DNA of 64,000 nucleotides, from the sequence record OM386658.1; one strand, given 5' to 3'. Source of the DNA: Escherichia phage vB_EcoM_ESCO32. The notes under the pieces are model-generated. The model did not search any database, was not told the DNA's origin, and was given only the letters and a program-made list of their open reading frames with translations. Positions 31,092-57,844 of the stretch are shown piece after piece (positions within the stretch are counted from its first letter, which is position 1; each line of letters begins with the position of its first letter). The translations under genes and the position numbers were made by a program.

Positions 31092-31461
31092 ATCAGACTC
31101 CTTTATAAATTTACGTTTCATGCCACACATCATACAGCATCTTTTCATCTATTACAAGAACAGCAACATAGAAACATCATTAATGGAGGGCTTAGTATAG
31201 GAATTAGTATAGGTATTCCCTATCAATTATTCTATATATACCTATTATTTTTAACACACCCCTTTGTACATAATATAGACAAATAAATATCTATGCCACA
31301 AAAATTTTCCGGTATACCCGATTTATTTCGACACACCCTTTTTCATAAGCGTAAAGTCAATAATATCAATAACTTGCCGCAAAATACTGCTCGCTTGCGA
31401 GAGGTGCTTAACGCGATTTTCAGCGCCCCCCGATTTCTGCCGACCGTCCCCCTCAAATATC

Positions 31462-31480
31462 AATGAGAATAATTATCATT
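31462..31480. promoter_or_regulatory. Fur-box-like palindrome
   Basis: AATGAGAATAATTATCATT, followed by TTGCAT; approx. Confidence 0.4.
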
Positions 31481-31658
31481 TGCATTATCATTCAATGACT
31501 TATAAGACTTTTGATTATTTTCTGAGCAAGAAAGGTACTACTCACAACAAAACAGATAAATTCTAAGTAAATCAATGGCTTGGCAAGTCTAAACATCTAT
31601 ATACACCTTGCCAAATGAAATGATCTGGCGTGAAATAGTGCCACCCGTGGAAGATAAC

Positions 31659-31675
31659 TGATAATGATTATCATT
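31659..31675. promoter_or_regulatory. Fur-box-like palindrome (best copy)
   Basis: ctGATAATGATTATCATTtgc matches 16 of 19 positions of Fur consensus GATAATGATAATCATTATC; preceded by GATAAC hexamer. Confidence 0.45.
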
Positions 31676-32542
31676 TGCATACTTTCTGTACTATAAAACC
31701 GACTAAAAATCAAGATAATTCTGATTTATTGCGCTTTTAAGAAAGTAGGCTCAACAAATAGGGGAATACATTGCAACAAATGAGGTATGTTATAGGGGCA
31801 ATAGTATGAAAAATCATCTATTCAGATAAAATAATTTTGCGCAATAGTGGCAATATTTTTCTTGACAAGAAAGATTTCTTTGTGTTCACATAGCGCCCCC
31901 TGGAGGGTGGCGCATTATGATCATCAGTGTCATTATTCATTTCAGTGTTATTATTCACCATGTTTATTATATGCAGCTTATATTATAGCCAATGTTCTAA
32001 ACATTAGCTAATAATAACGCACCGCAACAATGTAAGGGAATACAATATACTCGTATATTGTTGCGCTTGCAATTGTTGCAAGCTACATAAGCACAAATAA
32101 TAACTATCGGTGATGGTTATTATGTGGGGTGTGTAGTTGCGTTATTATTAGCCGCCTATGTGTCCGGCATAGGCTGCTAATGATACGCTTGCGAATTATA
32201 TTTCTTGTTATAGTTATTGTATGAAATGATTACTACATGAAATGGTTATTTAGGTAATAGATAGGGAGGTAAAGATTAGATCATAAATAGATAGGATATT
32301 AATTATTTAGCAATGTTACTAACAATTTAATAGTTACTTTGTGCAACAATTCGATAGATTATAGTTATAGTTTTAAGGGTTAGATAGATTATAGTTAGCT
32401 TAGTAATGATTTACATTGATTATTGTTGTTTAATATAAGGTTATCAATAAGATAGTAACAGTATGTTATAAATAAAAGTAAGATAATTAGCTTTAATTTA
32501 GTTAGATAACTTATTATTTTATAAGTTAGATGGTCTTAAGTT

Positions 32543-32561
32543 AAGAATGATTATCATTATT
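32543..32561. promoter_or_regulatory. Fur-box-like palindrome
   Basis: AAGAATGATTATCATTATT. Confidence 0.4.
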
Positions 32562-32597
32562 GCATTATGCAGTTTATTGCATAAATAATCAGCTATA

Positions 32598-32618
32598 AAT
32601 GAAAATGATTATCACTTA
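32598..32618. promoter_or_regulatory. Fur-box-like palindrome
   Basis: AAATGAAAATGATTATCACTT; the segment AATGATTATCACTTA recurs at about 44268. Confidence 0.4.
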
Positions 32619-32821
32619 AGAGGAAAGACAAGAAAAAGGCTGTTTTTGCCAGATAGTTACATTGAGAAATTAAAAATAAGCGGTCTAAAACACGTTGTAA
32701 GCGCCTTATGATCTTCATGGTATGGTTGTTCATCTGCTCCTTGATTAGCTCGATACCGCGATCTATTCACTTTTTTCGGTGAACGTTTTTGATAGGTAAA
32801 AGCTATCATCTTTATTTAGGT

Positions 32822-42967: not shown

Positions 42968-43240
42968 TTAAAGCAAAAATGCTACATCTTGCGCTTTTAG
43001 TGTAGTGTCGATCATTTTCGGGCTTTTATAATCAACAAAGCGCGCGGTTTTTTCAATAGCGAAACCTAAATAATCTTGCTTATTGAAATTACATTCTTTT
43101 TTAAATGTTTCCCGTGCCACGGTGATCGCTGCATCCAGGGATAAACGCCCATCAATATTAATATTAGCGAAAGATCCGCCACCGCGCATAGGTTTACCAG
43201 TGATACCCATTACGATCATTGATGCGCTATATGATGCCAT
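42968..43240 (-). CDS. hypothetical protein
   Basis: Track ORF. Confidence 0.55.
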   Translation of the reverse strand: MASYSASMIVMGITGKPMRGGGSFANINIDGRLSLDAAITVARETFKKECNFNKQDYLGFAIEKTARFVDYKSPKMIDTTLKAQDVAFLL

Positions 43241-43254
43241 GATTATTTCTCTCT

Positions 43255-43310
43255 TCTGTTATGAGCGGCACTATTGCCGCCCTATGTGATACATCTTATC
43301 AGATTAAAAA
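43255..43310 (-). promoter_or_regulatory. PeSL-like cassette
   Basis: TTGATA - 16 nt - TAAGAT then GCGGCA-ctat-TGCCGC hairpin. Confidence 0.5.
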
Positions 43311-43328
43311 ACGTTATCAAGAATATTT

Positions 43329-43424
43329 TTAAAAAATAATAACCGCTACTACAACCCAAAATGGAACGGCGAGAATGATAGCGTTAATCGTTCCAACCGC
43401 CAAGCTGTTTTCTTTCTTGATCAT
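43329..43424 (-). CDS. small hydrophobic peptide, 31 aa
   Basis: MIKKENSLAVGTINAIILAVPFWVVVAVIIF; weak SD; approx. Confidence 0.3.
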   Translation of the reverse strand: MIKKENSLAVGTINAIILAVPFWVVVAVIIF

Positions 43425-43692
43425 CGTTATCAACCTTTTATAAGTAATGTTATTGTGACGGTGGATTGTGGAGATCCTCACCTTTGCCCGTCCTGCATTG
43501 CGCCCTCCTTTTGTTTATTGTCGTTGTGCCTCGCCCCCCTCGACAAGATGAATAATACGCTACCAGGTGAGGAACGTCAACCCCTTTTTTAATCTTTTTT
43601 TCATTTCTTTTTTGCTTGCTATCTATAAAGGAAAGGGGCTATTATCTTTCTACCGCGCCAACCAGGGCGCACATCAAAGAAAGGGCGATACC

Positions 43693-43959
43693 ATGACAAA
43701 TACTACTTTACACCTCATGCACTCATTAGGCTGGCAAGGCGGCACGGTGCACCAGGTAGCAAGCGCAACGGGCTTAAAGGTTGAAACCGTTCTCAACCTG
43801 GGCGATCATAAGGTGGAAGAAATAGATCATTTTGATACGTTCGCAAATGGTTATCTATGGGCTTGCAGTGGCGGCGGGGAAAGCAAGATCCCACCAGGGG
43901 CGCGGGGTGATATGTATTTTTGGTTAGGTGTCCTATCCTGGCAAGAAAACAAAAAATAA
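43693..43959 (+). CDS. hypothetical protein (lone plus-strand gene at edge of minus-strand block)
   Basis: Track ORF 43567..43959 trimmed to ATG 43693; upstream TTGCTA-18-TATTAT and small hairpin. Confidence 0.45.
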   Translation: MTNTTLHLMHSLGWQGGTVHQVASATGLKVETVLNLGDHKVEEIDHFDTFANGYLWACSGGGESKIPPGARGDMYFWLGVLSWQENKK

Positions 43960-43961
43960 TA

Positions 43962-43990
43962 TTGACAAGCCCAGGGATCGGGCTTATACT
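43962..43990 (+). promoter_or_regulatory. near-consensus sigma70 promoter with no ORF downstream
   Basis: TTGACA - 17 nt - TATACT; downstream about 200 nt are GC-rich with inverted repeats and no SD-ATG ORF. Confidence 0.5.
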
Positions 43991-44221
43991 GTCTTACATA
44001 CAGAAGAGGAAGCGCCACCCCCACGGCGTAAAGGCGGGGCTAACATACCAGGGCACTACTGGTTGGAAGGTTGATCGCCGGTAGCTCGTCTAAAATAAAT
44101 TTGTAAAGAAATGTAAAGATAAAAATAATTGCTTGCTTTTGTTGTTGGTTATGCTATTCTTATTGTATGGCGAGGGGACACGGGAGCGCGAGACAAACAC
44201 CGCCCCTGCGCGTTATTCTCT

Positions 44222-44332
44222 AAATGAGAAAATTCTCATTTGCTAATGATTCTCATTCTCTTACTGAGAATGATTATCACTTACATAGTTAAATGATAAT
44301 GATTCTCATTTACAAATGAGAATCATTATCAT
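44222..44332. promoter_or_regulatory. cluster of five Fur-box-like palindromes
   Basis: AAATGAGAAAATTCTCATTT; TAATGATTCTCATT; GAGAATGATTATCACTT; GATAATGATTCTCATTTAC (15 of 19 to Fur consensus); AATGAGAATCATTATCAT. Confidence 0.45.
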
Positions 44333-44354
44333 ACGCACACCTATAAAAACACGA

Positions 44355-44557
44355 AATTGAACTTTTCATTTTTGATTTTTCTACGGAAAAAGGCAAAAAA
44401 ACTTTAAATAAACTGGGGAATTTTTAAAAAATTGAAGTTTTCATTTTCTAAACCTGGATAGAAATACGTACAAAAACTTTAAATAATTTTGACCAAACTT
44501 GAACTTTTCATTTTCTAAATTTGTACCCAAAAATCTGTAAAAACTTTAAATAATTTT
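44355..44557. repeat. three tandem direct repeats of a 66-76 bp unit
   Basis: Each unit has TTGAA(C/G)TTTTCATTTT and AAAAACTTTAAATAA boxes separated by about 22 variable nt; approx. Confidence 0.55.
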
Positions 44558-44772
44558 GTCCTTTTTATAAAAATGATTTTACTGTTCTGTTATAAATAGT
44601 AGCTAAGAGATAATGTGTCTTTTAAAAACCAAATAGCATAGTCCAACAAACAAATTAAATAATTTATTAACAGAGTACAAAATAATACTTACTCTGGATA
44701 TATTATTCAGAGGGTGAATTTCCGTACATGAAACCCACACCCCTTTTTATAAAAATAAAAATTTTCAAAATA

Positions 44773-45324
44773 TCAGGAAATATCAGATTGTGCTTTTAGA
44801 TAAACAGCAAGGTCTGTATGCCATTTTCCTAAAAGATTTTGTCCTTTCCAACAGTCCTTATTTTCCACATCACGATCCCACATCCCCATTTTGATACCAT
44901 AAATAGAATCATAAGGGCTTGCCTCTACGAACTCCTTATCGGCGTAAGCAATAAGTTTATTTTTGAGATCTTCATTTTGTGTGTATTTAAGATACAAACC
45001 ACGCTTGACAATCTTCTCTCGTAAAGAAGTCCAGGTATCTTCATCATAATCTTTAACTAATCTGCCTAGTCGCTTATAATATGCTTGTTCTTTTTCTCCT
45101 GTATATCTTAGACCTCCGGTTAAAATAGAAGATGCAATGTTGTAATCATAAAATAAACATGCTTTTCTCCACATCATATATTGTTCCACACAAGTAAATT
45201 CAACAGAACTTGTAATAGAATTATTATACTTGGGAGCTAAAGGTTCAATAAAAGATGATAGATACCAGTTGCTAAATTCATCTTTTGCCGAGAAGAAGAA
45301 CACATACTTATCAGTAATCCGCAT
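44773..45324 (-). CDS. NADAR-domain protein (YbiA/DUF1768-like)
   Basis: 183 aa; FSNWY...VEQYMMWRKACLF...GQNLLGKWHTDL resemble YbiA/NADAR motifs FSNF...SEHYFQAQKF...N.LG; AAGGAGG SD. Confidence 0.55.
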   Translation of the reverse strand: MRITDKYVFFFSAKDEFSNWYLSSFIEPLAPKYNNSITSSVEFTCVEQYMMWRKACLFYDYNIASSILTGGLRYTGEKEQAYYKRLGRLVKDYDEDTWTSLREKIVKRGLYLKYTQNEDLKNKLIAYADKEFVEASPYDSIYGIKMGMWDRDVENKDCWKGQNLLGKWHTDLAVYLKAQSDIS

Positions 45325-46503
45325 TTACACCTCCTTACTGTATACTAACTTGCCACCATGTTGTGTAATAATTTTTTGAAGATTTTCCAAATCAGAAGCA
45401 CTTACTGTTTCTGTATGACCATCTTTCAACTCTCTTGCTGTTAAAATACCAGTTTTTAGTTTTTTCTTTATAGCTCTTTCAGCAGCCTTACACTGTTTCA
45501 CTGTACTAAAATCATATAAACAAATACGCTCCATAAAAAACATATTATGCCTATTTTGATTGTTTAATCGCCTGTCACTATCTTTAGCTATGCCAAACTT
45601 AAGAGCAACTATAATATCATTATCTTTAACAATATTAATATATAATTGCTGTTGACTATGACCTGCACATTGTGGACAACCTTGACCGTGGCTTAATAAG
45701 TTATTAACACGCCCTATCTGCTCCCCATGCACAAGACAAAGATATTTAAACTTACCTGTAGAAGATGGTTTGGTAATCCAATCTACCCAGACATACCCTT
45801 TCCCTTCTACTTCCTTTTTTACCCTATAGGTGATCTGGTCTTCTGTATACTGATAGTTCCCACAACGACACGGAATGTACCCTTGTTTAAGGCGATTTCC
45901 TTTAGAGTAAAATTTACCATCACAAACACCTGCTTGAACATATTCATCATGAGAGCAAACAGGACATTCAACCATCCAGGTAATATGCCTACATCCTTTA
46001 CCCCGTGTTCCTGTGTTAGTGAAGATAGTGCCTTCCTTAAATTTCCCTGTAGAAAAGAAACCTGCAATATGTTGATCGTCGGACATTGTTTGTTTCTCCC
46101 TCCTACATTGTGGACAACCTCGACCGACTTTAAATTGATCAATTGCTGTACTTTGCCATCTATTCCCACAATGGCACAACAAATCAAGTTTTGTGTAACA
46201 CCCTTTCCATTCTCCAACGTACCCTAATACTTGATACTCCTTCTTCTGTGCTATCTCTTCCAAGATCGGTAATTCTGCTTCCCATGTTAACGGCTTATTC
46301 CTTGCACATGTCGGACAACCACGTCCATTCTTAAAATCATTAATGCTCGTGGTGTTCCATTCTCCATGATCAGAGCAAGATAGCTTAAGTTTAGTCTTGT
46401 TCCCTTTCCATTCTCCCGTCCATCCTAAGATTTGGATTTGCTTACTCTCTGCTATTGGTTGACACTCTTCTTTATATTGTTCCCATGATTTTGGTGCTAC
46501 CAT
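45325..46503 (-). CDS. putative nuclease: triplicated Zn-ribbon repeats plus C-terminal GIY-YIG-like (T5orf172-type) domain
   Basis: 392 aa; three repeats of G(W/Y)xGEWKG..TKLxLxC...GRGCPxC; C-terminal LYINIVKDNDIIVALKFGIAKDSDRRL resembles the T5orf172 pattern. Confidence 0.5.
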   Translation of the reverse strand: MVAPKSWEQYKEECQPIAESKQIQILGWTGEWKGNKTKLKLSCSDHGEWNTTSINDFKNGRGCPTCARNKPLTWEAELPILEEIAQKKEYQVLGYVGEWKGCYTKLDLLCHCGNRWQSTAIDQFKVGRGCPQCRREKQTMSDDQHIAGFFSTGKFKEGTIFTNTGTRGKGCRHITWMVECPVCSHDEYVQAGVCDGKFYSKGNRLKQGYIPCRCGNYQYTEDQITYRVKKEVEGKGYVWVDWITKPSSTGKFKYLCLVHGEQIGRVNNLLSHGQGCPQCAGHSQQQLYINIVKDNDIIVALKFGIAKDSDRRLNNQNRHNMFFMERICLYDFSTVKQCKAAERAIKKKLKTGILTARELKDGHTETVSASDLENLQKIITQHGGKLVYSKEV

Positions 46504-55069: not shown

Positions 55070-57844
55070 ATGGCTAAGAAAGAGTTGAGCTTCACTCCGA
55101 CAGAAGAGCAAACAGCTATTAAGGAGGCTTTTCCAGACCATCGCTTTTTAACTATCCAAGCTAAATCTGGGTCAGGCAAAACGTCAACACTTTATTTGCT
55201 GGCTAACAGTACAGAAGATCGCATTCTTTACTTAGCTTTCAATAAAAGCATGGCAGAAGAAGCACGACGTAAGATGCCACTAAATGTAGAATGCCGTACA
55301 TTGCATTCTATTTGCTATCAATTCCTGGATCATCGTTTACGTGCAAAACTGTCACGACCAGAAGGACAGTATGTTAACGTTGCAGGTACAGGTAGTGAGA
55401 TAGCAAAGAAATTTAAGATTAATAATCTTATTGATAAACGAGGGAAAACACTTTTAACTCGTGCTATGATCGGTTTAATGATCAAGCAAACCGTAGGTAA
55501 GTTTGAATTTTCGGATGATCCTTTTATCAGCCGTAAACATTTTCCTAGTGTACATCTTGCAGATATTAAAAGAAAAGGTATTAACGAACACAAACTAATT
55601 ACAGAAGTAGTTAAGTATGCAAAACAATTGTGGCGAGAGCGCATCGATCCTAACACAGACACTTTGATGACGCATGACACCTATGTAAAATTGTTTGAAT
55701 TATCTGGTGCTGATCTTGGTTATGATATTATTTTTGGTGATGAATTCCAGGATGTTAACCCTGCATTCTTATCTATTCTGCGAAATGCTAAATCTGCAAA
55801 ACAAATTGTGGTAGTGGGCGATGAATTCCAATGTGTGTCGGAAAACACGGTACTTAATACCGAGAATGGTCAGGTTACAATGAAAGACCTGCAAATCGGT
55901 GATAAGGTAGAGTCTTATTCTAATGGTAAAGTTACATTTAGAAAAGTAACAAATAAGACTTTATCTACACGTACAAAAGGTAGGAATATTATTACTGCCA
56001 CAGGTAAAACTTTAGATATGACACATAACCATCGTATTTGGGCTTCATCCTATGTTCTGAAAGATGATCAGATGGTGGTATACCTAATGTGGAGGAAAGA
56101 TTTAGGTTTCCGAGTAGGGATCACTAACAAATTCGATGATAAAGAAGGTTTTTCTAAACTGGGGCAACGTACACGTTCTGAAAAAGCACAGAAATTGTGG
56201 GTGTTGGATATTGTTGAAAACCGTGAAGCTGCTATGGAAAAAGAAATGGCATACAGTTTACAATATGGCATTCCTACTTGTGTATTTGAAGCAAGTTCAC
56301 GCGGCATTAATCAAGAAAGGATCAATAACATTTTTGAACAATTCGGACAAAACGGTTTTAAACTTTTAGAGGATAAAGATTATCATTTTGCTTATCCACA
56401 TTGGCACAGCATCAATTGTGCAGTAGATGAAAGAAAAATGTTAACAGTGACTTTGCGAGCACAAGGTTGTAAAGGAACACAAGTTAGTTTTGAGTGGACA
56501 GAAAGTGAAATGTCAATCTATGCTTCACTCATTGAAGCAGGTGTAAGCGTAAGTGTTGCTAAGTTGGAAGGTCGTTACCGTGTACGTAAATATTTCAATT
56601 CTTATCGTGAAGCATTGAGTTTTGCACAAAAGATCCTTGAAATAGTGCCGTTTGCATCTTTAAAAGAATGCATGTCCTCTGTGAACACCGCCAAATATAC
56701 TTTAATTCCGGCGGCGGGTTTGTTTAAAGGCATGTCTGTGTTGGTAAAAGATGGTGATACTGTAACGGCAGAAGAAATTGTGGACATTGTAGATAGTGAA
56801 GGTATCTATTATGATATTGAAGTAGAGGATACTGCTAACTTCTTTGGCAATGAAATTCTTAGCCACAACTGCATTTATCAATTTAGAGGTAGCTCTAATA
56901 TGATGATTGAAACAGCTAAGTATGGGGCAGAGCTTCCATTAACTGCTTGCTTCCGTTTTGGCCCCAAAGTGGCAAACATTGCCAATATGATTTTAAGCGA
57001 TAAAGAACCTTTGCGTCATCCTTTGGTTGGTAAAGGCTTTGATACTGTAGTAGGTAGCTACAAATCAGATGTTGTAGACTATACAAAACCTTACACTATC
57101 ATCTTTCGCAAGAATTTAACCTTGCTTATGGAGGCAATGGATCGTATTGCAGATGGGGAAGAAATTATTATTAACGTAGACACCAGGGATTTTATCTCTA
57201 TGGTAGATAGTGTTAATGCTCTTCGGAGAGGAGATATTGAGAAAGTAAAACATGAAACTGTATTACCTTACGCAGACTGGGATGAATTTGTTGAGTGTGC
57301 AGAGGCTGATCCAGATGCTAAACGCTTGTTAAACATTGTAGTTTCTGGTAAGGCAAACACTATAGCACATACACTTAGAACGCATAGAAATTCTCCTACA
57401 GCAAAAGTCACACTGACTACAGCACATAAGTCTAAAGGTTTGGAGTGGGATCAGGTTATTGTTGCTAATGATTTTCCTTCCAATTATGATAAAAAGACTG
57501 GTGAGTGGGTAGGACTAGAAGAGGCAGAGCGAAACCTACTGTATGTAGCGCATACCCGTTGTGTTAAATGCTTACAATGGAACACAACCGTACAGGAGAT
57601 TATAGATATCAACCGTGTTGCAACAGAGAAAGTACCAACAAGCACCACTTTACCGATCAATGGTATTAAACTTGGTGTATTTGGCGCTGGCACATCTCGA
57701 AAAGCTGTAGAAAAATTTGTTGCAGATTCTTTTGATGGTAACTATAATCATGCACAAGCATATGAGAGTTGGCTAGAGGAAGGTGAAGGTGATTTTTTAG
57801 GTGAAATAAATCTTTTACCAGACATAAATAAACTGGTAAACTAA
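55070..57844 (+). CDS. UvrD/PcrA-like superfamily 1 helicase containing an intein
   Basis: Track ORF trimmed to ATG 55070; Walker A AKSGSGKTST, motif II IIFGDEFQD; motif III is split (VVVGDEFQ / CIYQFRGSS) by a 346-aa insertion. Confidence 0.8.
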   Translation: MAKKELSFTPTEEQTAIKEAFPDHRFLTIQAKSGSGKTSTLYLLANSTEDRILYLAFNKSMAEEARRKMPLNVECRTLHSICYQFLDHRLRAKLSRPEGQYVNVAGTGSEIAKKFKINNLIDKRGKTLLTRAMIGLMIKQTVGKFEFSDDPFISRKHFPSVHLADIKRKGINEHKLITEVVKYAKQLWRERIDPNTDTLMTHDTYVKLFELSGADLGYDIIFGDEFQDVNPAFLSILRNAKSAKQIVVVGDEFQCVSENTVLNTENGQVTMKDLQIGDKVESYSNGKVTFRKVTNKTLSTRTKGRNIITATGKTLDMTHNHRIWASSYVLKDDQMVVYLMWRKDLGFRVGITNKFDDKEGFSKLGQRTRSEKAQKLWVLDIVENREAAMEKEMAYSLQYGIPTCVFEASSRGINQERINNIFEQFGQNGFKLLEDKDYHFAYPHWHSINCAVDERKMLTVTLRAQGCKGTQVSFEWTESEMSIYASLIEAGVSVSVAKLEGRYRVRKYFNSYREALSFAQKILEIVPFASLKECMSSVNTAKYTLIPAAGLFKGMSVLVKDGDTVTAEEIVDIVDSEGIYYDIEVEDTANFFGNEILSHNCIYQFRGSSNMMIETAKYGAELPLTACFRFGPKVANIANMILSDKEPLRHPLVGKGFDTVVGSYKSDVVDYTKPYTIIFRKNLTLLMEAMDRIADGEEIIINVDTRDFISMVDSVNALRRGDIEKVKHETVLPYADWDEFVECAEADPDAKRLLNIVVSGKANTIAHTLRTHRNSPTAKVTLTTAHKSKGLEWDQVIVANDFPSNYDKKTGEWVGLEEAERNLLYVAHTRCVKCLQWNTTVQEIIDINRVATEKVPTSTTLPINGIKLGVFGAGTSRKAVEKFVADSFDGNYNHAQAYESWLEEGEGDFLGEINLLPDINKLVN
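55832..56869 (+). mobile_element. intein (346 aa) inserted in helicase motif III
   Basis: Starts with Cys (CVSENTVLN, block A), block B LDMTHNHRIW, C-terminal blocks YYDIEVEDTANFFGNEILSHN ending His-Asn, followed by +1 Cys; size implies an internal endonuclease-like domain. Confidence 0.75.

What the first reader, a model, noticed from the sequence alone, without database searches (positions are those of the whole stretch)
44355..44557. Three tandem direct repeats (66-76 bp unit) with two conserved boxes each
Each unit contains TTGAA(C/G)TTTTCATTTT and AAAAACTTTAAATAA separated by about 22 variable nt. The arrangement sits right next to the palindrome cluster and resembles iteron arrays of replication origins or a battery of repeated promoters. 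A single exact T4 late-promoter core (TATAAATA) lies just downstream at about 44569.
Basis: seen in the sequence. Interest (0 to 1): 0.6.

Follow-up and report, generated by a model that had tools for sequence, protein, structure and literature searches.

The report
Conserved three-unit repeat array, phi92-like phage
Three real, evolutionarily conserved ~70-bp tandem repeats sit in a large gene-free control region of a phi92-like E. coli phage and look like phased docking sites for a phage-specific DNA-binding factor, perhaps at a replication origin, but nothing here shows what they do.

Summary
There are three units, with starts 75 and 67 bp apart. Each carries box A (TTGAASTTTTCATTTT) and box B (AAAAACTTTAAATAA), and these boxes occur nowhere else in the window or in a 146-kb close relative.

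The window is a phi92-like myovirus (Justusliebigvirus). The array lies in an ~810-bp gene-free region. The layout of that region is conserved across Stephanstirmvirinae and three genera of Vequintavirinae: two sigma-70 promoters with conserved GC-rich RNA-like segments, a CpxR-type box, Fur-box palindromes, three ~70-bp repeats and an AT-rich tract.

- Within Stephanstirmvirinae the boxes and their 46-bp core-to-core spacing are conserved, while the spacers diverge by about 50%.
- Box A has changed in parallel in all three units of this lineage.
- Vequintavirinae have three repeats at the same place, with the same 141-144 bp first-to-third span, but with different box sequences.
- There is no consensus RNA fold, no recurrent promoter geometry, no conserved ORF and no Rfam match.

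Best reading (confidence 0.35): an iteron-like array of phased bipartite sites for a lineage-specific DNA-binding factor, possibly a transcription-activated origin. No binding protein or initiator was found. The promoter-battery and T4-late-promoter readings are not supported.

The parts
44354..44428 (+). Repeat unit 1: box A1 at 44357-44372 (TTGAACTTTTCATTTT), a 24-nt variable spacer, and box B1 at 44397-44411 (AAAAACTTTAAATAA). The 3' flank AACTGGGGAATTTTTAAAAAA is specific to unit 1 and conserved in form in three of the five other type-S lineages read (Tr1, phi1_175008, FKP3).
44429..44495 (+). Repeat unit 2: box A2 at 44432-44447 (TTGAAGTTTTCATTTT), spacer, and box B2 at 44472-44486.
44496..44557 (+). 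Repeat unit 3: box A3 at 44499-44514 (TTGAACTTTTCATTTT), spacer, and box B3 at 44539-44553.
44591..44598 (+). TATAAATA, 46 bp downstream of the box B3 core. It may be a degenerate fourth half-site. It is present in some close relatives only and is not a T4-type late promoter.
43962..43990 (+). Context: promoter P1 (TTGACA-17-TATACT, 11/12 matches) with a hairpin in its spacer. It is conserved in all lineages examined.
43997..44090 (+). Context: conserved GC-rich segment downstream of P1 ('RNA1'). It ends in the invariant ATCGCCGGTA (44074-44083).
44103..44117 (+). Context: GTAAAGAAATGTAAA. This matches the CpxR consensus GTAAA-N5-GTAAA as I recall it from memory. It lies just upstream of P2. 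Both GTAAA half-sites are kept in 13 of the 15 lineages listed (GTAAA-N5-GTAAA); L047 and L064 have CGTAAA in the second.
44133..44213 (+). Context: promoter P2 (TTGCTT-16-TGcTATTCT, read by eye in the window; the tool recovered the equivalent sites in 4MG and Tr1) followed by a conserved GC-rich hairpin-forming segment ('RNA2').
44215..44335 (.). Context: cluster of Fur-box-like palindromes, including a perfect 19+19 inverted repeat at 44293-44332.
44558..44692 (.). Context: AT-rich tract that is not conserved in sequence. The least stable 100-mer of the region is 44529-44629, fourth least stable in the 64-kb window.
44693..44752 (+). Context: two hairpins followed by CUUUUUAU, a weak terminator-like end on the + strand. 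phAPEC8 has a clear hairpin plus U-run and Tr1 a weaker one at the equivalent place.
44768..44785 (+). Context: AAATATCAGG AAATATCA tandem pair at the right edge of the gene-free region. Two to four AAATATC(A)-like copies are present at this place in both subfamilies.

Best explanation
The three repeats are a cis-acting array of three bipartite recognition modules. In each module a box A core and a box B core lie exactly 46 bp apart. In relatives both boxes share the core AAAsTTTAAAT, which gives six sites, perhaps seven.

I read them as phased docking sites for a sequence-specific DNA-binding factor that differs between phage lineages and is therefore probably phage-encoded. The array is the AT-rich centre of an ~810-bp gene-free control region. 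That region lies behind the early-gene block, about 12.9 kb from the predicted right genome end.

Proposed mechanism: the factor binds the phased sites cooperatively and builds a nucleoprotein complex of fixed geometry (141-144 bp from first to third unit) on easily melted DNA. Two strong host-type promoters, P1 and P2, transcribe towards and possibly into this DNA, and they are flanked by host-regulator sites (a CpxR-type box and Fur boxes). This is the architecture of a transcription-activated, iteron-type phage replication origin. Less likely, it is a transcription switch region.

Shown here: the repeats exist; the boxes and spacing are conserved; box A evolves in concert; the array is unique in the genome; the DNA has low duplex stability; the layout is conserved across two subfamilies.

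Inferred, not shown: that a protein binds, which protein it is, and that the complex starts replication.
For: - Exact boxes with fixed internal spacing occur only here.
- In six divergent Stephanstirmvirinae lineages there are always three units (the middle one is degenerate in phAPEC8). The core-to-core distance is 46 bp and box B-to-box B spacing is 75-77 then 66-67 bp.
- Information content is 0.92 bits per column in box A and 1.00 in box B, against 0.50 in the spacers. The spacers differ at about 50% of positions.
- Box A evolves in concert. The window's three copies differ at 0-1 of 16 positions from each other but at 4-7 of 16 from the orthologous units of other lineages. The phi92-like and phAPEC8-like phages both infect E. 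coli, so a host factor would not demand this change.
- Three Vequintavirinae groups (Seunavirus, Mydovirus and a third, GC-richer group from metagenomes) have exactly three repeats at the same position in the same layout. Spacing is 63-68 then 74-78 bp (141-143 in total), with different boxes: AATACG-N19-CGATCGAGAACC.
- The protein genes next to the region in Vequintavirinae have no detectable counterpart beside it in the window, so the gene-free region is better conserved than its neighbours.
- RNAalifold finds no consensus structure on either strand for either repeat type, and Rfam has no match. Selection therefore acts on primary sequence and spacing.
- 44250-44850 is a 600-bp trough of low duplex stability, with its minimum at unit 3 and just downstream.
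- P1 and P2 point into the array.
Against: - No initiator-like gene is adjacent. The neighbours are a NADAR protein, a CapR/T5orf172 endonuclease and an AAA ATPase.
- The region has no DnaA box, IHF consensus site or GATC within the array.
- Cumulative GC skew shows no inflection here.
- Three other 100-mers in the window are less stable.
- Erwinia phage Hena1 keeps RNA2 and one Fur box but has no array, so the array is not universal in the wider group.
- The two repeat types cannot be shown to be homologous in sequence: 24/71 identities in register, against 19-29 in shifted registers.
- The + strand probably carries transcripts through the array, so an RNA-level role is not excluded.
Confidence: 0.35

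Rival explanations
1. RNA-level element. The array is part of a non-coding transcript running from P2 (or from P3 in Seunavirus and Mydovirus) to the terminator-like hairpins near 44745. The repeated A/U-rich boxes would be single-stranded binding modules that sequester or recruit an RNA-binding protein, acting as a sponge or decoy.
For: All promoter-like elements of the region point the same way. Terminator-like hairpins with a U-run close the region on the + strand in the window, and more clearly in phAPEC8 and Tr1. In 4MG a strong promoter (TTGACA-18-GAAAAT preceded by TG, 10/12 matches) ends about 10 nt before unit 1. The same element is seen by eye in other Seunavirus and Mydovirus sequences. 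The array is very poor in C and G, which is unlike a Rho-loading site.
Against: There is no consensus secondary structure and no covariation on either strand, and no Rfam family matches. Unit-to-unit and intra-unit distances are held to within 1-2 bp across subfamilies. That is expected for helical phasing on DNA and is not needed for a sponge RNA. Type S phages and the GC-richer, third Vequintavirinae group have no promoter next to the array. No transcript data exist for these phages.
Confidence: 0.2
2. Battery of three tandem promoters, either host sigma-70 type or a phage-specific class, with box B (TTTAAATAA) as a -10-like or T4-late-like element and box A as an upstream element.
For: Box B resembles TATAAATA at 7 of 8 positions. 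Box A lies about where an UP element would sit if box B were a -10 element (my inference from the sequence). The fixed A-to-B distance is promoter-like.
Against: No -35/-10 pair with 16-18 bp spacing recurs at the same unit position across lineages. The boxes occur nowhere else in the genome, so they are not a promoter class. TATAAATA and TTTAAATA are not enriched and lie mostly inside genes. Nothing conserved lies downstream to be expressed, and transcription would run antisense into gp223. Type V boxes (CGATCGAGAACC) are not -10-like. rV5-group phages lack gp33/45/55 homologues (PMC3606486).
Confidence: 0.08
3. Host-interaction or DNA-entry element analogous to the phage T5 injection-stop (iss) region. 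The gene-free region, including the array and the Fur-box palindromes, would bind host or phage proteins on incoming DNA to pause or anchor the genome after the first ~8-9% has entered. Alternatively it would act as a multi-copy decoy for host regulators.
For: The Fur-box-like palindromes match the T5-like left terminal repeat at ~9.5 kb, next to paired DnaA boxes. Davison places iss in that repeat region (bioRxiv 10.1101/866236). The region lies 11.2 kb (7.6%) from the mapped right end of phi92 and ~12.9 kb (~9%) from the predicted end here. T5 first-step transfer is 7.9%. The genes between the region and the genome end are small early-type genes. Vequintavirinae share daunorubicin sensitivity with T5-like phages (PMC13250531).
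Against: Two-step injection has not been reported for these phages, and which end enters first is unknown. The region has no DnaA boxes. The three repeats themselves have no counterpart in the T5 region. The array sequence differs between phages of the same host, which argues against a host factor for the array itself.
Confidence: 0.07
4. Each unit encodes a tiny peptide starting at a TTG inside box A.
For: Short + strand TTG-initiated ORFs of 9-39 codons exist in the units. In relatives they read through box B as K-T/S-L-N-N. Gene callers annotated such ORFs in Tr1 and cardinal.
Against: The start position and reading frame are not conserved between the window lineage and its relatives. Stop positions vary. 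No Shine-Dalgarno sequence precedes the TTGs. The spacer 'codons' diverge freely.
Confidence: 0.03

Closest known systems
Iteron-type replication origins (lambda ori, P1 oriR, iteron plasmids; T4 oriE with a promoter plus short iterons). Properties recalled from memory, not tested.
   Same: There are several direct repeats of a short recognition core, unique in the genome. The core is lineage-specific and evolves in concert. An easily melted AT-rich tract and a promoter firing into the region lie alongside.
   Different: The sites are bipartite, with a 46-bp internal spacing and 67/75-bp unit spacing, rather than 17-22 bp iterons in ~22-bp phase. No cognate initiator gene is recognisable nearby. 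There are no DnaA or IHF sites. Origin activity is untested.
Promoter-plus-unwinding-element origins (T7 primary origin; T4 oriF/oriG). From memory.
   Same: Two tandem strong promoters lie upstream of an AT-rich, low-stability tract. The transcripts carry G-rich segments that could favour an R-loop.
   Different: Those origins have no repeat array or host-regulator boxes between promoter and unwinding element. Here about 190 bp (RNA2 plus the Fur boxes) separate P2 from the array.
Phage T5 Repeat Region 3 / injection-stop region (Davison, bioRxiv 10.1101/866236)
   Same: Both are large conserved untranslated regions, better conserved than the neighbouring ORFs and packed with direct repeats and palindromes. 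Both contain Fur-box-like palindromes that align by BLAST with those upstream of this array. Both lie roughly 8-9% from a genome end.
   Different: T5 has paired DnaA boxes at 52-bp spacing, two 66-bp DRE repeats and nine DRD repeats, and none of these resemble boxes A or B. The T5 region lies inside a 10-kb terminal repeat, whereas phi92 has a 343-bp terminal repeat elsewhere.
phi29 p4 binding-site array in the early/late switch region. From memory.
   Same: T-tract and A-tract half-sites are separated by a fixed spacer and repeated several times between promoters. They are thought to build a bent multimeric nucleoprotein complex.
   Different: p4 sites are inverted repeats 15 bp apart that flank the promoters they control. 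Here the cores are direct repeats 46 bp apart and lie downstream of the promoters. There is no p4 homologue.

Membership tests
Iteron-type replication origin | Multiple direct repeats of one recognition sequence, conserved against variable spacers | tested here: met
   Three units make six AAAsTTTAAAT-like cores. The boxes carry 0.92-1.00 bits per column against 0.50 in the spacers.
Iteron-type replication origin | Iterons of ~17-22 bp in regular ~2-turn phase | tested here: not met
   Core spacings are 46, 29, 46, 21 and 46 bp. Unit spacing is 75 and 67 bp.
Iteron-type replication origin | Cognate initiator (Rep/O-like) gene at or next to the iterons | tested here: not met
   [not shown]
Iteron-type replication origin | Adjacent AT-rich DNA-unwinding element | tested here: met
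   There is a 600-bp low-stability trough. Its minimum at 44529-44629 is the fourth least stable 100-mer of the 64-kb window.
Iteron-type replication origin | Host accessory sites (DnaA boxes, IHF) | tested here: not met
   No TTWTNCACA or WATCAANNNNTTR match occurs in 43960-44790. Fur-like and CpxR-like boxes are present instead.
Iteron-type replication origin | Replication initiates there | not testable with these tools
   GC skew follows gene orientation only and shows no inflection at the region. Marker-frequency or 2D-gel mapping is needed.
Sigma-70 promoter battery | -35 and -10 hexamers 16-18 bp apart at a conserved position in each unit | tested here: not met
   Only one 9/12 match falls inside the window's array, and no match recurs at the same unit position in Tr1, phAPEC8 or 4MG.
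Sigma-70 promoter battery | A conserved gene or RNA downstream to express | tested here: not met
   The downstream 44558-44770 is not conserved between lineages (BLAST matches end at the array). It runs into the 3' end of a converging gene.
T4-type late promoter | TATAAATA used as a promoter class upstream of late genes | tested here: not met
   There are 3 copies in the window against 7.4 expected. The 146-kb relative has 14 copies, only 4 of them intergenic.
T4-type late promoter | gp55/gp33/gp45-type late transcription proteins | not tested
   Reported absent from rV5 (PMC3606486). Not searched for in this phage.
Known structured RNA family (Rfam) | Match to a covariance model, or a conserved secondary structure with covariation | tested here: not met
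   No plausible family match at E <= 1 in 43000-45500. RNAalifold returns an empty consensus structure on both strands for 21 type S and 40 type V units.
Type III toxin-antitoxin antitoxin-like repeats (ToxI mimics) | Near-identical 34-45 nt tandem repeats conserved along their whole length, next to a toxin gene (features recalled from memory) | tested here: not met
   The units are 67-75 bp with ~50% divergent spacers. No toxin-like gene is adjacent.
T5 injection-stop region | Paired DnaA boxes in inverted repeats inside the first-transferred DNA | tested here: not met
   No DnaA boxes are present. Only the Fur-like palindromes are shared.

The most novel reading that the evidence does not exclude
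The whole gene-free region, with the three-unit array at its centre, is a DNA-entry or genome-anchoring checkpoint of the kind proposed for the T5 injection-stop signal. It sits about 8-9% from the genome end, behind a block of small early genes. It shares Fur-box palindromes with the T5 iss region and carries a CpxR-type envelope-stress box. The array would be the docking site for a phage protein that releases or resumes the process. This would extend two-step genome delivery, or a sensor-gated early programme, to the rV5/phi92 group of myoviruses.
Probability: 0.07. Interest if true: 0.85.

Novelty: new variant of a known kind. Interest (0 to 1): 0.55.

Why it matters
Phages of the rV5/phi92 group are widely used as broad-host-range therapeutic candidates, yet no study located here maps their replication origin or early regulatory logic. 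This region is the largest conserved non-coding module in their genomes apart from the termini, and it is better conserved than the genes around it. If the array is the origin or a master switch, it gives a defined target for engineering, for example minimal replicons, host-range-independent control or decoy plasmids. It would also be a natural case of a recognition sequence being swapped while the geometry of the complex is kept. The host-regulator boxes beside it (Fur, CpxR-type) would mean that the phage reads iron status and envelope stress at this locus.

Tried and rejected
- General promoter motif: boxes A and B occur nowhere else, even with 2-3 mismatches near gene starts.
- T4 late promoter: the motif is depleted.
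- tRNA or known RNA: ARAGORN finds no tRNA in the window or in eight related loci, although one Mydovirus record annotates tRNAs over the region. Rfam gives nothing.
- Conserved RNA hairpin in the units: hairpins seen by eye in individual units do not survive alignment.
- Packaging site: the phi92 terminal repeat maps to window 31409-31751, about 12.9 kb away.
- GC-skew origin signal: none.
- Relatives outside these phages: an IMG/VR scan for three box B copies returned AT-rich noise apart from two phi92-like contigs. The plasmid search gave one marginal 48-nt hit (E = 5e-3) and complete E. coli genomes none.
- Sequence homology between type S and type V units: not demonstrable.
- Small peptides: the reading frame is not conserved.
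- Host-factor motifs (OmpR, Fis, H-NS, ArgR, Lrp, IHF) were compared by eye from memory and none fitted convincingly.
- Two literature searches were badly phrased and returned nothing relevant. The phi92 genome paper is not held.

Full report
**What is there.** Window 44354-44557 holds three tandem units whose starts are 75 and 67 bp apart. TRF reports the last two units with score 171.

Each unit has box A (TTGAASTTTTCATTTT at 44357, 44432 and 44499) and box B (AAAACTTTAAATAA at 44398, 44473 and 44540). These are the only exact copies in the 64-kb window. Allowing 2-3 mismatches yields only scattered hits at chance frequency. The start-to-start distance from A to B is 41 bp in every unit. Measured between the TTGAAC and TTTAAA cores it is 46 bp.

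The one error is that the exact TATAAATA lies at 44591-44598 rather than about 44569.

**Where it is.** The window is a phi92-like myovirus of the genus Justusliebigvirus in Stephanstirmvirinae. It is 96-98% identical to phi92, muut, alia and others over this region.

The array lies in an ~810-bp gap without ORFs. The gap runs from a small + strand gene (43693-43959, the phi92 gp224 homologue) to the 3' end of a converging - strand operon, which ends with the gp223 NADAR gene at 44773.

The 343-bp terminal repeat of phi92 maps to window 31409-31751. The array is therefore about 12.9 kb (~9%) from the predicted right genome end. In phi92 itself the region is 11.2 kb (7.6%) from that end. Between the region and the genome end lie some 24 small early-type genes. 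Their relatives in phAPEC8 are each preceded by an annotated promoter.

**Anatomy of the gene-free region, + strand, left to right.**
- P1: TTGACA-17-TATACT at 43962-43990.
- A conserved GC-rich segment ('RNA1', about 43997-44090) that ends in the invariant ATCGCCGGTA.
- GTAAAGAAATGTAAA at 44103-44117. This matches the CpxR consensus GTAAA-N5-GTAAA as I recall it.
- P2: TTGCTT-16-TGcTATTCT, about 44133-44160, read by eye in the window. It is followed by a conserved GC-rich hairpin ('RNA2').
- A cluster of Fur-box-like palindromes at 44215-44335.
- The three repeats.
- An AT-rich tract.
- Two hairpins followed by a U-run at 44693-44752.
- AAATATCAGG AAATATCA at 44768-44785.

**Conservation within Stephanstirmvirinae.** I collected 32 distinct copies of the region from GenBank phages, IMG/VR and metagenomes. 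I used BLAST and the invariant 36-nt pattern ATCGCCGGTA-N16-TTTGTAAAGA.

- In Tr1, phi1_175008, FKP3, phAPEC8 and one further lineage the array is present, always with three units. The middle unit of phAPEC8 is degenerate.
- In those relatives box A reads TTTAAATTTTGsTTTT, so boxes A and B share the core AAAsTTTAAAT.
- The core-to-core distance is 46 bp in every unit, except for a +1 insertion in phi92 unit 3. Box B-to-box B spacing is 75-77 and then 66-67 bp.
- Column information is 0.92 (box A) and 1.00 (box B) bits, against 0.50 in the spacers. The spacers differ at about half of their positions between any two units.
- Box A shows concerted evolution. The three copies in this window differ at 0-1 of 16 positions from each other, but at 4-7 of 16 from the orthologous units of other lineages.
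- Among six close relatives the substitutions seen fall in the spacers, not in the boxes.

**Comparison with Vequintavirinae.** Seunavirus (4MG, GAP31, GEC_vB_MG), Mydovirus and a third, GC-richer group of contigs have the same region in the same order. That order is P1/RNA1, the GTAAA-N5-GTAAA box, P2/RNA2, Fur boxes, exactly three tandem repeats, and then AAATATC(A)-like repeats.

The repeats there have a different sequence: AAAAATTTTTT, then AATACG-N19-CGATCGAGAACC. Their internal distances are constant and the unit spacing is 63-68 and then 74-78 bp. The first-to-third distance is 141-144 bp in both subfamilies, apart from 138 bp in phAPEC8.

The two repeat types cannot be shown to be homologous in sequence. 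They share 24/71 identities in the core-anchored register, against 19-29 in shifted registers. What is conserved is place, number and geometry.

The protein genes next to the region in Vequintavirinae have no detectable counterpart beside it in the window. Erwinia phage Hena1 keeps RNA2 and one Fur box but has no array.

**Tests of the alternatives.**
- RNA structure: RNAalifold gives an empty consensus on both strands for 21 type S and 40 type V units. Rfam gives no plausible match.
- Promoters: consensus scans recover P1 and P2 in Tr1 and 4MG, and P1 in the window and phAPEC8 (P2 there read by eye). In 4MG they also recover a strong P3 that ends about 10 nt before unit 1. No promoter-like match recurs at the same unit position.
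- Promoter class: the boxes are not used anywhere else in the genome.
- T4-type late promoters: TATAAATA is under-represented. The rV5 paper reports no gp33/45/55 homologues.
- Coding: small TTG-initiated ORFs exist, but their start and reading frame are not conserved and they lack a Shine-Dalgarno sequence.
- Packaging: the genome ends are elsewhere.
- Origin indicators: 44250-44850 is a 600-bp low-stability trough. Its minimum at 44529-44629 is the fourth least stable 100-mer of the window. However, GC skew shows nothing, and there are no DnaA or IHF sites.

**Interpretation.** Selection acts on two short boxes and on distances held to within 1-2 bp. It does not act on a fold or a reading frame.

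The box sequence differs between phages that infect the same host, and it changes in all three units together. This points to a trans-acting factor encoded by the phage rather than by the host. It also points to a complex whose geometry matters, which is more natural for double-stranded DNA than for an RNA sponge.

The setting is a unique, gene-free and easily melted region, fed by two strong promoters and flanked by host-regulator boxes. It most resembles a transcription-activated, iteron-type origin; a switch region of the phi29 p4 kind is second. I put 0.35 on the DNA-level protein-binding array with a probable origin role.

The rivals are:
- 0.20 on an RNA-level module.
- 0.08 on promoters.
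- 0.07 on a T5-iss-like entry or host-factor element.
- 0.03 on peptides.

The rest is unassigned. None of the trans-acting steps has been shown.

**Literature.** The rV5 genome paper shows a 'non-coding' box in its map but does not discuss it, and its skew analysis found no origin. The muut, alia and inny records annotate 'repeat_region' features; in muut, the one inspected, they lie over the Fur palindromes only. I found no description of the three-unit array, but the phi92 genome paper could not be read.

Noticed in passing
window 43962-44090: A strong sigma-70 promoter (TTGACA-17-TATACT) is followed by a ~90-nt GC-rich segment ('RNA1') that is conserved across two phage subfamilies. A 12-lineage alignment gives a consensus fold in which four pairs keep pairing through changes on both sides. 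By eye, a possible pseudoknot (loop ACCCC with downstream GGGG) changes to CCAA/UUGG in FKP3. Rfam has no match. This may be an undescribed phage non-coding RNA.
   Followed up: partly
L067 (phage cardinal) 484-1211, equivalent to window ~44083: In phage cardinal a 197-codon ORF is inserted inside RNA1 at ATCGC|TGGTA. By eye it looks like a homing endonuclease. A second, FKP3-type copy of P1 plus RNA1 follows it, a pattern typical of homing into a conserved target.
   Followed up: partly
window 44103-44117: GTAAAGAAATGTAAA matches the CpxR consensus GTAAA-N5-GTAAA as I recall it. It lies just upstream of the -35 of P2. Both GTAAA half-sites are kept in 13 of the 15 lineages listed, while two or three bases of the N5 spacer vary (pattern GTAAAGAnnnGTAAA); L047 and L064 have CGTAAA in the second half-site. 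It is the only such site in the window (1 found, 0.33 expected).
   Followed up: partly
window 44215-44335; also 31462-31495, 31660-31678, 32543-32561, ~32600, 56372-56390: Fur-box-like palindromes are strongly over-represented: 6 hits at up to 3 mismatches to GATAATGATAATCATTATC, against 0.04 expected. Two lie inside the predicted terminal repeat (31409-31751). Similar clusters match by BLAST in the left terminal repeat of T5-like phages, next to the iss DnaA boxes, and in the terminal repeat of jumbo phage Muenster. They might titrate Fur or make the region iron-responsive.
   Followed up: partly
window 44768-44785, and the equivalent places in L003-L006, L040-L043, L048: AAATATCA is repeated two to four times at 10-13 bp spacing at the right edge of the gene-free region. 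Unlike the three large repeats, its sequence is conserved in both subfamilies. In this window it overlaps the stop codon of the NADAR gene.
   Followed up: partly
L040 ~1735-1870, L042 ~1685-1790, L006 1865-1890; window 44607-44614: TTTGAGATAA(T), which reads as an extended -10 (TGnGATAAT), recurs two to four times downstream of the array in several relatives. The window has only GAGATAAT.
   Followed up: no
window 31150-32650: This is a second large gene-free region. It contains the homologue of the phi92 343-bp direct terminal repeat (31409-31751), so the physical genome ends fall inside this window. It also holds the least stable 100-mer of the window (32429).
   Followed up: partly
[not shown]
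   Followed up: yes
GenBank MG065639, MG065645, MG065656, MG065689 (L009-L011): Records labelled 'Campylobacter phage' (marked UNVERIFIED) are 98% identical to this E. coli phi92-like phage. They are probably mislabelled or contaminant assemblies.
   Followed up: no
L042 1232-1385 (Klebsiella phage vB_Kpn_K45PH128C2): That record annotates tRNA-Ile and tRNA-Met on the opposite strand, across the end of RNA1, P2 and RNA2. ARAGORN finds no tRNA there or in any related locus.
   Followed up: yes
window 45325-46503: The neighbouring gene (gp222 homologue) combines four CapR-homology repeats with a T5orf172 domain. It looks like a homing-endonuclease-like protein, sitting between the NADAR gene and an AAA ATPase.
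   Followed up: no
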